From Candidatus Wukongarchaeum yapensis (GTDB taxonomy: Archaea; Asgardarchaeota; Wukongarchaeia; Wukongarchaeales; Wukongarchaeaceae), in the NCBI GenBank assembly GCA_016840425.1, contig JAEOSI010000073.1:1-9600 (forward strand): DNA of 9,600 nt. The letters are read 5' to 3'. Shown piece by piece: positions 1-6,111 of the stretch. The notes beneath the pieces were generated by a model that did not search any database, was not told where the DNA came from, and was given only the letters and a program-made list of their open reading frames with translations. Positions within the stretch are counted from its first letter, which is position 1. The number at the start of each line of letters is the position of its first letter. The translations under genes and the position numbers were made by a program.

Positions 1-263
1 GTTTTTTTACCGCCAGCATAAATAGACACGAAAACGCCCGGTCTCCCGTCTGGAGTCTTCTCCGGCCTCGGACCCTCGATTCCAGCTTCTACGGGGCACA
101 TTTATGCTTAGTAACCTCTATGGTTACTAATTATCATTGAGACCCCGAATCCGATGATGTTTTGCGCGGTTTCTAGGGCGGTTTCTTCTGTGTCGGCTGT
201 TATGAGTAATCTTATGGCTTGTGCGCCAAAGGCTTCTGCAAATGTTTCTTCGATTTCGACCAT
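1..263 (-). CDS. ftr: Formylmethanofuran:tetrahydromethanopterin formyltransferase, 5' part, split by a 30-nt insert (exon 1 263-132, exon 2 101->1; continues beyond the window)
   Basis: Manual translation: 263-132 gives MVEIEETFAEAFGAQAIRLLITADTEETALETAQNIIGFGVSMI and 101-3 gives MCPVEAGIEGPRPEKTPDGRPGVFVSIYAGGKK. These match the Ftr motifs E-x-TFAEAF, RxLITA, GFGxSxIMCPxEAGI and TPDGRPG. RBS-like AGGGGT lies 7 nt before the ATG. Functional only if the insert is spliced; otherwise a pseudogene. Confidence 0.9.
102..131 (-). other. Candidate BHB-type intron (30 nt) in ftr
   Basis: Insert ATTAGTAACCATAGAGGTTACTAAGCATAA reads I-S-N-H-R-G-Y-stop-A-stop in frame. It contains the perfect stem TTAGTAACC/GGTTACTAA with a 5-nt loop. 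Removing it yields TCA ATG ATA ATG TGC CCC (SMIMCP). Confidence 0.65.
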
Positions 264-270
264 TAATATA

Positions 271-276
271 ACCCCT
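271..276 (-). promoter_or_regulatory. Shine-Dalgarno-like site of ftr
   Basis: AGGGGT on the - strand, 7 nt upstream of the ATG at 263. Confidence 0.55.
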
Positions 277-309
277 ATTAAATATGGTTTGTTCTGTTTT
301 AAGAATTTG

Positions 310-510
310 GATTTTATATTTAATTTTTTCGTGTAATCTTTGAGGGTAGCTCTTTGAAAAAGTTCTAGTATTGTCTTTATATAATTGGGTTTTTAGGGTT
401 TATACCTTCATTTTAGGGGGTAGTTATTTTTCGTGTTATTAATCTAAAAGCTTCTATGAGTTATTAGAGTGGTTTTTTATTTTTTTTATGTTTATTAGGT
501 TTTAAAAGAA
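310..510. repeat. Copy 1 of a decayed ~250-bp direct repeat
   Basis: Collinear matches to copy 2: 310-328 vs 556-574 (18/19), 344-361 vs 596-613 (16/18), 374-399 vs 626-651 (23/26), 481-510 vs 732-761 (26/30). Confidence 0.8.
311..330 (-). promoter_or_regulatory. Possible BRE/TATA promoter for ftr
   Basis: The - strand reads GAAAAAATTAAATATAAAAT about 50-65 nt upstream of the ftr start. The AT-rich context weakens specificity. Confidence 0.35.
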
Positions 511-529
511 TGAAGAAAGAATGAAGAAA
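505..529 (+). repeat. 11-bp tandem duplication AAAGAATGAAG x2
   Basis: 505-515 and 516-526 are identical and followed by AAA. Confidence 0.7.
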
Positions 530-555
530 TAAACAAAAAAATTATCGAATGATTA

Positions 556-761
556 GATTTTATATTTGATTTTTAGCTCGAAAAGTGTGAGGGGGGGGTA
601 GCTTTATGAAAAATCCTGAGATGCATCTTTATAAAATCGGGTTTTTAAGGTCTTAAGTGCTGTTGGAGGGATGGTTTTTTTTGGGGGTTATTATTCTATA
701 ATCTTCGTATAAAAATTGTCTTTAATATTTGTTTTTTTAAGTTTATTTGGTTTTAAAAAAT
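556..761. repeat. Copy 2 of a decayed ~250-bp direct repeat
   Basis: Same four blocks as copy 1 at a near-constant offset of 246-252 bp. Confidence 0.8.
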
Positions 762-880
762 AGTTTTTTTTCTTGGTTTTGGCATTATGTTGTTTGTTTG
801 TCTTTTTATACAAAAAGAATAAAAATGGGGTGCGGATCTAAAACACTGATCGTTCTCTTAGAGTATAGGTATAATAAATG

Positions 881-888
881 TTTTATAT
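881..888 (+). promoter_or_regulatory. Possible TATA box for the fwd operon
   Basis: TTTTATAT preceded by A-rich AATAAATG, about 80 nt upstream of fwdD. Confidence 0.35.
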
Positions 889-968
889 GTAATATCGGCA
901 TTTTCTTTAGAGGGCGATCTTACGTAAATTTGTTAATGTGAAAGAATGTTGTCAAGGTGATTTCAAAA

Positions 969-1361
969 ATGGCTGGTAAAGAGTTTTACTTAATCTCTGG
1001 AAGAGATATCAAGCAGGGCACCTCGATGGAGAGGTATGGAAAGCTTTCAGAACAGTATGCTGAAGTAGTTTCGAGGCTGGAGATTAATCCTGAGGATCTT
1101 AAGGCTCTTGGTGTTAATGATGGTGATCCTATAAGGGTCACAAGTGATGAAGGGTCGGTTATTGCTACAGCGAAGTCAAGCACTGATGTTGAGATTGGAA
1201 TGGTCTTTATAGCTTATGGTCCATGGGCTAATGTGCTTAGTGGTACTTATACCCACGGTACTGGGATGCCTGACTTTAAATCGGTTAGGGTGACCATGGA
1301 AAAAGCAGAAGGTGAAAAGGTTCCTACTGTCAAAGAAGTTGTTAAACTGATGTTAAAATAG
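969..1361 (+). CDS. fwdD: Formylmethanofuran dehydrogenase subunit D
   Basis: Molybdopterin dinucleotide-binding domain signatures (INPEDL..LG...GD.IRVTS..GSV; GMVFIAYGPWAN; GMPDFKS). Start placed at ATG 969 because GGTGA (956-960) is RBS-like; the track's GTG 957 lies inside it. Confidence 0.92.
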   Translation: MAGKEFYLISGRDIKQGTSMERYGKLSEQYAEVVSRLEINPEDLKALGVNDGDPIRVTSDEGSVIATAKSSTDVEIGMVFIAYGPWANVLSGTYTHGTGMPDFKSVRVTMEKAEGEKVPTVKEVVKLMLK

Positions 1362-1426
1362 GTTAAAGAGGTGTTAAAAACAAAATAATTCTTTAATATT
1401 TTTGAAAAGTAAGAGGTTTGATAAAA

Positions 1427-2716: not shown

Positions 2717-4435
2717 ATGATGGCTGAAAGTATGATTATTAAAGGCGGCATCGTCTATGATCCCCTTAACGGGGTTAAAGGCGAAAAAACGGATATTATG
2801 ATAAAAGATGGCGTAATAGTTAGCGAAGTACCATCAGATGCTAAAGAAGTGGATGCAAGTGGCAAGATTGTTGCACCAGGCGGCGTCGAAATGCATGCTC
2901 ATGTGGCAGGTCCCAAAGTTAACGCGGGTAGAACTCTTCTTCCTGGAGACTTTAGGAGATACTATGTGCCAAAAACAGACTCCTTAAGGGCCCTTGTAGG
3001 TTATGCTGTACCCACAAACTATACTACAGGGGTCAAGTATACTGAACTGGGATTCACCACAGTTTTTGAGCCTGCAATGGCTCCTCTTGATGCAAGACAT
3101 ACCTTTGAAGAGCTTGAGGACATGCCGAATGCAGATAAAGCTGTTTTTCCTGTTTTCGGCAATAACTGGTTTGTCTTCGATTGCGTGAAAGACAATGATA
3201 TAGAGAAGTTGAAAGCCTTTATCGCATGGATGATGACTGAAACAAAAGGCTATGGTATTAAAATCGTTAATCCTTGTGGAGCCTACATGTGGGCCCATCA
3301 TCACTCAAATGTTACGAGCGTTGATGACGTAGTTCCAGAATATGATGTAACCCCGCGCCAAGTATTAAGAGGCTTAGCCCAAGCCAACGAAGAACTTGGA
3401 TTACCTCACACGATCCATGTACATGCGAACATGCTTGGTAGGGTAGGAAATGTATCAACAACCTTAGATACCCTAAAATGTGTGGAAGATATTAAACCTC
3501 ACCCGAGCAGGGAGCAAGTGATACACCTTACACATCTGCAGTTCAACTGTTTTGGTGAAGACGAGAATCATAGAATTTGTAGTGGCGCAGAAGATTTGGC
3601 AGAATATATAAACAGTCATCCTCAGGTGTCCGCTGACTTAGGACAGGTTATAGTTGATGTTCCCACATGCACAATGACTAGTGATGGTCCGGCAGAGTTT
3701 TTCATTCACAAAGCTCTGGGGCCAAAAGCAAAATGGATTAATGGTGATGTTGAAGCTGAGTGTGGTGGAGGAATAGTTCCTATAACCTATAGAAGCAACA
3801 ATCCTTTCAACGCGATCCAGTGGGCTATAGGCATTGAAACCTGTCTCCTTGTTAAGGATCCGTGGCGAGTAGTAATTACCACAGACCATCCTAACGGTGG
3901 TCCCGCATGGTATTACCCACGCGTTATTTCATGGCTCATGAGTAAGAAAGCACGGGATAAGATGATAGAAACCGTTCACAAATCTGTGCAGGATAAAACC
4001 AGTCTAGTAAACCTAGAACGTGAGTATACTTGGGAAGAAATATTGATCTGTACAAGGGCTGGTCCCGCCAAGCTTCTTGGGTTAAAGTCGAAAGGTCATT
4101 TAGGCGAAGGCGCCCATGCTGATGTTGCAATATATCCAATAGATCCAGAAAAAGTGGACATGGCAAACCAACCAGAAGAGATTGAAAAGAAATTATGGGC
4201 AGACATGGTGATAAAAGACGGAAAGTTCCTAGTAAAGAATGGTAAAACCATCACAACTGAAAGAGGAAGAACATACCTAATAAATCAGTATTACAAGGAC
4301 GAAGAACACAAAAGGATGCTTAAAGATCTTAAAGAGCACTTCCAGAAGTGGTACAGTATAACGTTTAACAATTACCGCATACAAGATGTCTTTGCTCCAA
4401 GGCCTCAAACTGTATCAATAAACCCTATTAGTTAA
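2717..4435 (+). CDS. fwdA: Formylmethanofuran dehydrogenase subunit A (binuclear amidohydrolase)
   Basis: EMHAHVAGPKVN, GIKIVNP (carbamylated Lys position), IHVHAN, HLTHLQF, TTDHPNGGP, GHLGEGAHADVAIY. RBS GAGGTG at 2707-2712. Start could be 2720. Confidence 0.95.
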   Translation: MMAESMIIKGGIVYDPLNGVKGEKTDIMIKDGVIVSEVPSDAKEVDASGKIVAPGGVEMHAHVAGPKVNAGRTLLPGDFRRYYVPKTDSLRALVGYAVPTNYTTGVKYTELGFTTVFEPAMAPLDARHTFEELEDMPNADKAVFPVFGNNWFVFDCVKDNDIEKLKAFIAWMMTETKGYGIKIVNPCGAYMWAHHHSNVTSVDDVVPEYDVTPRQVLRGLAQANEELGLPHTIHVHANMLGRVGNVSTTLDTLKCVEDIKPHPSREQVIHLTHLQFNCFGEDENHRICSGAEDLAEYINSHPQVSADLGQVIVDVPTCTMTSDGPAEFFIHKALGPKAKWINGDVEAECGGGIVPITYRSNNPFNAIQWAIGIETCLLVKDPWRVVITTDHPNGGPAWYYPRVISWLMSKKARDKMIETVHKSVQDKTSLVNLEREYTWEEILICTRAGPAKLLGLKSKGHLGEGAHADVAIYPIDPEKVDMANQPEEIEKKLWADMVIKDGKFLVKNGKTITTERGRTYLINQYYKDEEHKRMLKDLKEHFQKWYSITFNNYRIQDVFAPRPQTVSINPIS

Positions 4436-5232: not shown

Positions 5233-5259
5233 GATTATTATAAAGGCGGTTTGATAAAA

Positions 5260-6111
5260 ATGGCAGAAGCAAAAGTTGTTCCCGTGAGCGCAAGTTATTG
5301 TGAAGCAATAACTTCTTGGTGCACGAGATTATTAATCACAGCAAAATCCTATGAATGGGCAGAAAATTCAGCTGTCGAGCTGTGCGGTTTTAGCGAAAGC
5401 GCTATCGAAAGACGTGCAAGTGAAACTGAAACCCCTGACGGAAGACCGGGGGTTTTCGTGCAACTCCATAACTATACGAGGGCTGCTTTGAAAGGTATGA
5501 TGTTGGCAAGGGCAAGTCAAACTGTGCTAACTTGCCCGACAACAAGGCTTTTCAACGCTATTTCCGAGGACTCAGAAAAACGATATAAACTCGGTAAAGG
5601 TTTCTCAATGTTCGGAGAAGGCTATCAGAAGCTGGAGAAAAAATGGGACAGAGATATGTACAGTGTGCCAGTAATGGAAGGTTTGTTCTGGCTTGAAGAA
5701 AAATATGGTTTACGTAGAGGCGTTGTAGGCGTTGGTCTCATATTTACAGGAAAAGAACAAAAAGACCTTGTTCAATTCGCTGCAAAAGCCACTGAAAAAT
5801 TGAAGGCAGAGCCTCTGAAAATAATCTTACCCCACCCAGGGAAAAGTGTCAGATTTGGAGAAGCTTTAGCAGCTACACGTCTCAGCAACCTTGGCGTAAG
5901 CGCTAAATTCGATCCGTTGAAAGAACCTAATGCAGAAATAGTTTTCAACGCTATATCGCCAGTCCAAGCAGCATGCGCAATAAGCACAGTTAAGGACATG
6001 GCAAAAGGAGCAGGTGTTAAACTTCTTGGAAGAACCTACGGCAACTGTCTCCGAGGAATGTACGACGACGAAGGCTACGCTTTACGCGAACTAATCTACC
6101 TAGAAAGTTGA
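5260..6111 (+). CDS. Divergent Ftr-family (FhcD-like) protein
   Basis: Keeps RLLITA, TPDGRPG, T-C-PT, FGEGYQ, PVMEG and EIV, but lacks several canonical Ftr motifs. Last gene of the fwd operon. Confidence 0.85.
   Translation: MAEAKVVPVSASYCEAITSWCTRLLITAKSYEWAENSAVELCGFSESAIERRASETETPDGRPGVFVQLHNYTRAALKGMMLARASQTVLTCPTTRLFNAISEDSEKRYKLGKGFSMFGEGYQKLEKKWDRDMYSVPVMEGLFWLEEKYGLRRGVVGVGLIFTGKEQKDLVQFAAKATEKLKAEPLKIILPHPGKSVRFGEALAATRLSNLGVSAKFDPLKEPNAEIVFNAISPVQAACAISTVKDMAKGAGVKLLGRTYGNCLRGMYDDEGYALRELIYLES

What the first reader, a model, noticed from the sequence alone, without database searches (positions are those of the whole stretch)
1..263. Hidden ftr gene interrupted by a 30-nt stop-containing insert at a conserved motif: candidate intron in an archaeal metabolic mRNA
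Seen: both flanks encode well-conserved Ftr sequence in the same frame with no other lesions in the 231 visible coding nt. The insert adds two stops (TAA GCA TAA). Exact removal of 30 nt restores GFGVSMIMCPVEAGI. Established: archaeal protein-gene introns are very rare; the classic case is cbf5 in crenarchaea, removed by the tRNA splicing endonuclease. Inference: this is a spliced intron in a methyl-branch Wood-Ljungdahl enzyme, so C1 flux could depend on splicing. ORF callers would mis-annotate it as truncated or absent.
Basis: partly seen in the sequence, partly recalled or inferred. Interest (0 to 1): 0.92.

Follow-up and report, generated by a model that had tools for sequence, protein, structure and literature searches.

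The report
tRNA-type mini-intron inside Asgard ftr gene
A 30-base, stop-containing insert in the formyltransferase gene (ftr) of an Asgard archaeon has the fold and cut sites of an archaeal tRNA-type intron. It is conserved in a gene that stays intact under purifying selection, so the mRNA is very probably spliced, something published so far for only one archaeal coding sequence (cbf5).

Summary
On the minus strand, ftr (263..1, cut by the contig end) is interrupted at 131..102 by 30 nt carrying two in-frame TAA codons. Removing them gives GFGVSMIMCPVEAGI, exactly as in the intact 297-aa ortholog of the same-genus MAG.

The insert is real DNA. It is in assembled contigs (Logan) of three sequencing runs and in five independent metagenome contigs.

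In those contigs the rest of ftr is complete and open. Intron-bearing lineages differ by dS 0.4-1.0 with dN/dS about 0.1, also for exon 2 alone. The insert itself is 29-30/30 identical, and its only change turns a stem G-C into G.U.

The RNA fits an hBHBh' motif:
- exon helix CA/UG, followed by a further 6 bp;
- central helix AUGA/GCAU (three Watson-Crick pairs and one A.G);
- bulges UA|A and AA|A;
- a 9-bp intron stem.

The canonical cuts remove exactly the 30 nt.

Five other genes of this genome (aIF2-alpha, dnaG, pcm, a radical SAM gene, Alba) carry inserts with the same geometry. EndA and RtcB are present.

No RNA data could be obtained, so splicing is inferred (about 0.85). This scan has already noted the same kind of intron in other Asgard genomes. 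In the searchable literature only cbf5 has one within its coding sequence.

The parts
132..263 (-). ftr exon 1 (codons 1-44, MVEIEE...GFGVSMI)
   Evidence: identical to the start of the intron-less 297-aa protein P0001
102..131 (-). 30-nt BHB intron with two in-frame TAA codons (110-108, 104-102)
   Evidence: absent from G001, L071 and the X6 contig; present in L066-L070
1..101 (-). ftr exon 2, first 33 codons (MCPVEAGIEGPRPE...), cut by the contig end
   Evidence: continues intact for about 250 codons in L066 and L067
134..137 (-). central helix H, 5' strand (AUGA, last exon-1 bases before the bulge)
   Evidence: pairs with 107-104 (GCAU): A-U, U-A, G-C, A.G
131..133 (-). 5' bulge UA|A, cut after the 2nd base (between 132 and 131)
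   Evidence: cut rule from PMC2738675
108..130 (-). intron hairpin h': 9-bp stem (130-122 with 116-108) and loop AUAGA (121-117)
   Evidence: in L067 and L068 one C->U change turns a G-C pair into G.U
104..107 (-). central helix H, 3' strand (GCAU, intron)
101..103 (-). 3' bulge AA|A, cut between 102 and 101
138..147 (-). exon-1 strand of the exon-exon helix (CA at 139-138; CGGGGU at 147-142)
   Evidence: all 8 pairs kept in both intron-bearing lineages, 4 of 8 broken or weakened in each intron-less allele
92..100 (-). exon-2 strand of the exon-exon helix (UG at 100-99; GCCCCG at 97-92)

Best explanation
The 30 nt at window 131..102 (minus strand) are a bulge-helix-bulge (BHB) intron in the ftr pre-mRNA of an Asgard archaeon. 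The transcript folds so that the last exon-1 bases pair with the intron's 3' part (central helix). An exon-exon helix and a 9-bp intron hairpin flank this helix. Two 3-nt bulges lie on opposite strands. The tRNA-splicing endonuclease EndA cuts after the second base of each bulge, and RtcB joins the exons. The result is ...UCA AUG AUA|AUG UGC CCC..., which encodes a full-length Ftr. Shown here: the DNA, the fold geometry, conservation of the insert, intactness of the gene and selection on it, parallel cases in the same genome, and presence of the enzymes. Inferred: the cleavage and ligation themselves.
For: (1) Geometry. The structure is h CA/UG plus 6 bp, H AUGA/GCAU, bulges UA|A and AA|A, and h' of 9 bp. 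It scores -19.2 kcal/mol against an MFE of -21.7. The cut rule 'between 2nd and 3rd bulge residue' comes from PMC2738675. These cuts remove exactly the 30 nt that restore the frame.
(2) The same insert is in five metagenome contigs from five samples. There ftr is otherwise open over its full length, with FTR and FTR_C domains intact.
(3) Between intron-bearing lineages dS is 0.43-0.98 and dN/dS 0.09-0.13. For exon 2 alone, downstream of the stops, dN/dS is 0.09-0.12.
(4) The intron is 29-30/30 identical, against 22% differences at synonymous third positions (binomial P about 0.005). The single change keeps the stem (G-C to G.U).
(5) All 8 exon-exon pairs are kept in both intron-bearing lineages. 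In the intron-less alleles L071 and G001, 4 of 8 are broken or weakened. The four differences nearest the junction all lie on helix positions.
(6) Five other genes of the same genome have ORF-breaking inserts with the same geometry, and excision restores conserved motifs:
- aIF2-alpha, 30 nt, single copy;
- dnaG, 32 nt, pcm, 30 nt, and radical SAM, 41 nt;
- Alba, 36 nt.
Several are not multiples of 3 or have no restart codon.
(7) One EndA gene and one RtcB gene are present, and 16 of the 18 tRNAs that aragorn can find have introns.
Against: - No RNA evidence: no RNA run was listed.
- The central helix has one non-Watson-Crick position (A.G).
- The exon helix next to it is only 2 bp before a small internal loop.
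- The BHB fold is 2.5 kcal/mol above the MFE.
- Only one EndA subunit gene was detected in this 92%-complete MAG. The broad-specificity (alpha-beta)2 architecture is therefore not shown.
- An ATG follows the second TAA directly, so a restart is conceivable.
- Covariation support is thin: one G-C to G.U change and only two distinct intron sequences.
Confidence: 0.85

Rival explanations
1. Split gene: the insert is not removed. Translation stops at the first TAA, giving a 51-aa N-terminal piece, and restarts at the ATG right after the second TAA. The two polypeptides then assemble into an active Ftr.
For: An ATG follows the second TAA directly, and an SD-like AGAGGU lies 12 nt upstream inside the insert. 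Purifying selection on both exons and conservation of the insert would also fit. Gene callers already predict the 253-aa exon-2 protein (P0002).
Against: That ATG belongs to the conserved MIMCP motif and is also there in intron-less alleles, so it was not created for a restart. The exact BHB geometry and the maintained exon-exon helix have no role in a restart. Sister inserts in aIF2-alpha, dnaG and the radical SAM gene have no start codon after them or shift the frame, so they cannot work this way.
Confidence: 0.07
2. Plain insertion that has inactivated ftr. The gene would be a pseudogene, perhaps tolerated because of the Ftr-like paralog in the neighbouring fwd operon (5251..6111).
For: There are two in-frame stops. 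A second FTR-family gene lies on the same contig. L067 has an additional 22-nt deletion near the start codon.
Against: About 250 codons downstream are open in every full-length copy. dN/dS is 0.09-0.13 at dS up to about 1 between three intron-bearing lineages. L068 is 99% identical to L067 and lacks the 22-nt deletion. The paralog has only a weak FTR_C match (22 bits).
Confidence: 0.03
3. Programmed translational bypass (ribosome hopping over the 30 nt, as in phage T4 gene 60) or stop-codon read-through.
For: The gap is short, contains stops and has a stable hairpin at the take-off side.
Against: No matching take-off and landing codons give the right frame. AUA...AUA lands out of frame, and AUG...AUG would delete two conserved residues (sequence). 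Read-through would need two TAA codons decoded and would add 10 residues inside a conserved motif. Sister inserts of 32 and 41 nt shift the frame.
Confidence: 0.03
4. Assembly or sequencing artefact.
For: The contig ends 101 nt from the insert, and the MAG is fragmented (277 contigs).
Against: The insert is identical in Logan contigs of three runs at full depth and in five JGI contigs of other samples, one lineage with a single base change. The contig end is explained by strain mosaicism: L069 is identical for about 230 nt and then about 75% identical.
Confidence: 0.01

Closest known systems
BHB intron in the cbf5 (pseudouridine synthase) pre-mRNA of Crenarchaeota (Watanabe 2002; Yokobori 2009, PMC2738675)
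   Same: The intron lies inside a protein-coding sequence and is bounded by a (partly relaxed) bulge-helix-bulge motif, with cuts between the 2nd and 3rd bulge residues. It is removed by the tRNA-splicing endonuclease. It is present or absent among close relatives ('gain and loss').
   Different: The gene is a C1-metabolism enzyme, not an RNA-modification enzyme. The host is Asgard, not Crenarchaeota (Thermoproteota in GTDB). The intron is only 30 nt, a simple 9-bp hairpin. It is one of at least six such introns in one genome. Splicing is not yet shown experimentally here.
BHB intron in the 5' UTR of Haloferax volcanii HVO_1309 mRNA (PMC7714728)
   Same: An mRNA substrate of the archaeal splicing endonuclease outside tRNA and rRNA.
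   Different: That intron lies in the untranslated leader and does not interrupt the reading frame. The ftr intron carries stops inside a conserved motif, so splicing would be obligatory.
Archaeal tRNA introns, especially the many non-canonical ones of Asgard archaea (PMC11291895; preprint 10.64898/2026.10.13.758758)
   Same: The same hBHBh' motif and the same enzymes. Gains are repeated and lineage-specific, and the route of arrival is unknown. This genome's tRNA genes are also heavily interrupted.
   Different: The host RNA is an mRNA. Neither paper mentions introns in protein-coding genes.
Unconventional cytoplasmic splicing of HAC1/XBP1 mRNA in eukaryotes (own knowledge; PMC8718801 abstract for RtcB and XBP-1)
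   Same: A short intron is cut out of an mRNA by an endonuclease acting on stem-loops, and the exons are joined by the tRNA ligase (RtcB in metazoa). No spliceosome is involved.
   Different: The cutting enzyme is IRE1, not the tRNA endonuclease. That splicing is regulated by stress. No homology of the introns is implied.

Membership tests
Archaeal BHB (EndA-dependent) intron | [quoted passage not shown] | tested here: met
   Bulges UA|A (133-131) and AA|A (103-101). The helix AUGA/GCAU has 3 Watson-Crick pairs and one A.G, so this is a slightly relaxed form.
Archaeal BHB (EndA-dependent) intron | Flanking helices h (exon-exon) and h' (intron-intron) | tested here: met
   h' is a perfect 9-bp stem. 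h is 2 bp, then a small loop, then 6 bp. The exon pairs are kept only in intron-bearing alleles.
Archaeal BHB (EndA-dependent) intron | Cuts after the 2nd bulge base yield the functional mature RNA | tested here: met
   The cuts remove exactly 131..102 and restore ...SMIMCPVEAG..., identical to intron-less orthologs. A 3-nt repeat at the junctions means four adjacent registers give the same product.
Archaeal BHB (EndA-dependent) intron | The host encodes the splicing endonuclease and the RtcB ligase | tested here: met
   EndA N- and C-terminal domains at G000:C113:807-1319 and RtcB at C137:14480-15787. A second EndA subunit was not found.
Archaeal BHB (EndA-dependent) intron | Structure conserved in evolution (compensatory or structure-neutral changes) | tested here: inconclusive
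   There are only two distinct intron sequences. The single change is G-C to G.U in h'. The intron is more conserved than synonymous sites (P about 0.005). No double compensatory change is available.
Archaeal BHB (EndA-dependent) intron | Spliced RNA, or a circular or linear excised intron, observed | not testable with these tools
   No RNA run was listed for this stretch.
Formylmethanofuran:H4MPT formyltransferase (Ftr) | FTR and FTR_C domains over the whole protein | tested here: met
   The window part matches FTR positions 5-78. The full-length intron-bearing copy L066 scores FTR 86.9 bits and FTR_C 178 bits.
Programmed translational bypass (T4 gene 60 type) | Matching take-off and landing codons that restore the frame | tested here: not met
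   No such pair flanks the 30 nt in the required frame (sequence).

The most novel reading that the evidence does not exclude
This Asgard lineage may carry a whole population of EndA-spliced mini-introns in protein-coding genes, including central metabolism and essential genes such as aIF2-alpha and dnaG. Many share a stereotyped 30-nt build (1+9+5+9+4+2). They are gained, lost or exchanged between congeneric genomes. If so, intron gain into mRNAs is an ongoing process in close prokaryotic relatives of eukaryotes, and gene expression there depends genome-wide on tRNA-type splicing.
Probability: 0.6. Interest if true: 0.9.

Novelty: new member of a known kind. Interest (0 to 1): 0.72.

Why it matters
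In the literature that could be searched, the only BHB intron inside an archaeal coding sequence is that of cbf5 in Crenarchaeota (PMC7714728 states this).

An obligatory tRNA-type intron in a Wood-Ljungdahl enzyme of an Asgard archaeon, alongside similar introns in aIF2-alpha, dnaG and other genes of the same genome, would have three consequences:
- EndA/RtcB splicing of mRNAs would be a regular part of gene expression in the prokaryotes closest to eukaryotes.
- It would offer a natural system for studying how introns arrive, because filled and empty sites exist between near-identical alleles.
- Current annotations miss or truncate such genes. Here ftr is called as a 253-aa fragment or as a hypothetical protein, and this biases metabolic reconstructions of Asgard archaea.

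Tried and rejected
- RNA evidence: no RNA holder was listed for window 1-1400 or 1-300, so expression and splicing could not be examined.
- Copies of the insert elsewhere in the genome: none, exact or approximate. It is not a multi-copy MITE.
- My first hand check used a mirrored BHB geometry and found no motif. I corrected this using the tRNA case and PMC2738675.
- De novo genome-wide scans for the BHB motif combined with ORF joining, with a mirror-motif control and a codon-usage filter, gave real counts equal to control counts. They were swamped by gene-boundary and non-coding-frame hits, so they yield no total intron count.
- Comparison with 400 kb of the same-genus genome was the productive route.
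- The 253-aa Ftr proteins P0092 and P0104 (45% identical, starting at the same residue) looked like further intron cases. They are simply cut by contig ends.
- A second EndA subunit was not found with PF01974 or PF02778.
- A Pfam call on the EndA ORF failed because of wrong coordinates.
- The rest of ftr is not on any other contig of this MAG.

Full report
**What is in the sequence**

The window is one whole 9600-bp contig (G000:C47) of a fragmented MAG: 2.16 Mb, 277 contigs, 38% G+C, 92% complete.

On the minus strand an ftr gene starts at 263 and runs off the contig at position 1. Its translation reads 44 Ftr residues, then ISNHRGY*A*, then 33 more Ftr residues in the same frame. The extra 30 nt are window 131..102, with TAA codons at 110-108 and 104-102.

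The only other genome of the genus (G001) carries the syntenic ftr as an uninterrupted 297-aa ORF with GFGVSMIMCPTEAGI. Its record is titled 'Candidatus Hodarchaeota archaeon'. A near-identical Ftr fragment elsewhere is labelled Wukongarchaeota. The pairwise DNA alignment has a single clean 30-nt gap.

The gene sits head to head with an fwdDBAC-like operon. That operon ends in an Ftr-like paralog and is followed by a [NiFe] hydrogenase.

**Is it real DNA?**

Logan contigs of three runs (marine sediment and 'seawater' metagenomes) contain the insert without a mismatch, at the same depth as the flanks. X1 and X2 look like one data set. X3 is a different strain.

A mangrove run (X6) holds a relative about 93% identical that lacks exactly these 30 nt.

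A scan of JGI metagenomes with the G001 protein returned five contigs from five samples (L066-L070). All five carry the insert at the same place. An artefact is excluded.

The contig end at window position 1 is explained by strain mosaicism. L069 is identical to the window for about 230 nt and then drops to about 75% identity.

**Is the interrupted gene alive?**

- In L066 and L067 the gene continues for about 250 codons to its normal stop, without any further lesion. The FTR and FTR_C domains score as well as in G001.
- Three intron-bearing lineages differ by dS 0.43-0.98 with dN/dS 0.09-0.13. For exon 2 alone, the part downstream of the two stops, dN/dS is 0.09-0.12. A pseudogene would not behave like this.
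- The insert itself is 29-30/30 identical between these lineages, although 22% of synonymous third positions differ (binomial P about 0.005).
- The one substitution (C to U in L067 and L068) changes a stem G-C pair into G.U.

**What is the insert?**

It is unique in the genome, so it is not a repeated mobile element.

The RNA folds as follows, using the geometry of archaeal BHB introns: the central helix is made of the last exon bases before a 3-nt bulge and of intron bases n-5 to n-2, and the cuts fall between the 2nd and 3rd bulge residues (PMC2738675).
- Exon-exon helix: CGGGGU/GCCCCG, then a small loop, then CA/UG.
- Central helix: AUGA/GCAU (A-U, U-A, G-C, A.G).
- 5' bulge: UA|A.
- Intron hairpin: a perfect 9-bp stem with loop AUAGA.
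- 3' bulge: AA|A.

The two cuts remove exactly 131..102. This structure scores -19.2 kcal/mol, against -21.7 for the unconstrained optimum.

All eight exon-exon pairs are intact in both intron-bearing lineages. In the two intron-less alleles four of the eight are broken or weakened. Those alleles are L071, whose exon 1 is otherwise identical to the window for 119 nt, and G001. The four differences nearest the junction between the window and L071 all lie on helix positions. This is suggestive, not statistically strong.

**Parallel cases in the same genome**

Notes of this scan pointed to other candidate introns. I checked them in the sequence.
- aIF2-alpha: the single-copy gene has a 30-nt in-frame insert with a TGA (HISE[KI*FPVISPK]IASTW). 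G001 lacks it. The motif is UCGG/CCGA with AA|A bulges and a 9-bp stem.
- dnaG: 32 nt. Joining restores GALFGQTEGLLG.
- pcm: 30 nt. Joining restores TISAPHMV.
- A radical SAM gene: 41 nt, absent in G001.
- An Alba paralog: 36 nt. G001 has a 41-nt BHB intron at the same site plus a second 30-nt one 12 nt downstream.

I also aligned the genome with 400 kb of G001. Among about 142 indels of 12 nt or more, only two break long ORFs (ftr and radical SAM), and these two have the top BHB scores.

Four introns share the same build, 1+9+5+9+4+2 = 30 nt: ftr, aIF2-alpha, pcm and the second G001 Alba intron.

The genome encodes EndA and RtcB. Only one EndA subunit gene was detected. Aragorn recognises only 18 tRNAs, 16 of them with introns. 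This fits the heavy tRNA interruption reported for some Asgard lineages (PMC11291895; preprint 10.64898/2026.10.13.758758).

**Rivals**

- Split protein: a restart at the ATG after the second TAA cannot be excluded by sequence. However, that ATG is part of the conserved motif in intron-less alleles too. A restart would not need a BHB or an exon-exon helix. The sister inserts have no restart codon or shift the frame.
- Bypass: this lacks matching take-off and landing codons.
- Pseudogene and artefact: both are contradicted by the selection data and the independent assemblies.

**Known and new**

The library search found only the cbf5 intron of Crenarchaeota inside a coding sequence, plus a 5'-UTR intron in Haloferax (PMC2738675, PMC7714728). 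It found nothing on protein-gene introns in Asgard archaea.

This scan has already flagged the same kind of mini-intron in other Asgard genomes, for example in radA, rpoA1, dnaG, uppS and fbp, and in this genome. The ftr case is therefore one more member of a class that appears to be unpublished but recurrent.

**Verdict**

A BHB intron that EndA and RtcB must remove to make Ftr: probability about 0.85. The missing piece is RNA evidence.

Noticed in passing
G000:C70 (minus strand) near position 1480; G001 ortholog in L057: The 3' 15 nt of the aIF2-alpha intron (GTCATATCTCCGAAA) nearly duplicate the last 15 nt of exon 1 plus one base (GTCATATCTCGGAAA). The intron's 5' stem strand is their inverted copy. 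This hints that such introns may arise by a local inverted-plus-direct duplication. The ftr and radical SAM introns show only a weak version of this.
   Followed up: partly
ftr (window 102-131), G000:C70, G000:C126, L048 (G001:C14, minus strand, about 3250-3300): Four unrelated introns share one architecture: 1 nt, a 9-bp stem with a 5-nt loop, a 4-nt helix strand and 2 nt, totalling 30 nt. Their bulges are A-rich.
   Followed up: partly
G000:C201:429-464 (+) and L048 3100-3460 (-): The Alba paralog has an intron after KPV in both genomes of the genus, but with different length and sequence (36 against 41 nt). G001 has a second 30-nt intron 12 nt downstream.
   Followed up: partly
window 307-507 and 553-758: There is a degenerate tandem duplication of about 250 nt in the AT-rich ftr-fwd intergenic region. 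The mangrove relative's contig skips 252 nt here (479 to 732), so the copy number varies.
   Followed up: partly
window 5251-6111 (+): An Ftr-like gene (FTR 118 bits, weak FTR_C) closes the fwdD-B-A-C-like operon. This arrangement recalls the FhcD subunit of formyltransferase/hydrolase complexes (own knowledge). It is also present in G001.
   Followed up: no
L067 (SMTZ1_10001273), about 20 nt after the ftr start codon: A 22-nt deletion shifts the frame after MVEIEET. The 99%-identical L068 lacks it. It is either an assembly error or a broken allele.
   Followed up: no
ftr in L069, L071, G001 and L068: The gene is a recombination mosaic. L071 (no intron) is identical to the window for 119 nt and then about 14% different, starting 13 nt before the intron site. 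G001 is 94-96% identical to L068 in the 3' half but 72-82% around the intron site.
   Followed up: partly
whole genome G000: Aragorn finds only 18 tRNA genes, 16 with introns. Most tRNA genes are probably missed because of multiple or non-canonical introns.
   Followed up: no
P0002 and P0003: Public gene calls for intron-bearing ftr are truncated: a 253-aa exon-2 protein, and a 151-aa 'hypothetical protein' labelled Wukongarchaeota. The same-genus MAG is labelled Hodarchaeota, so the taxonomic labels of this lineage disagree.
   Followed up: no
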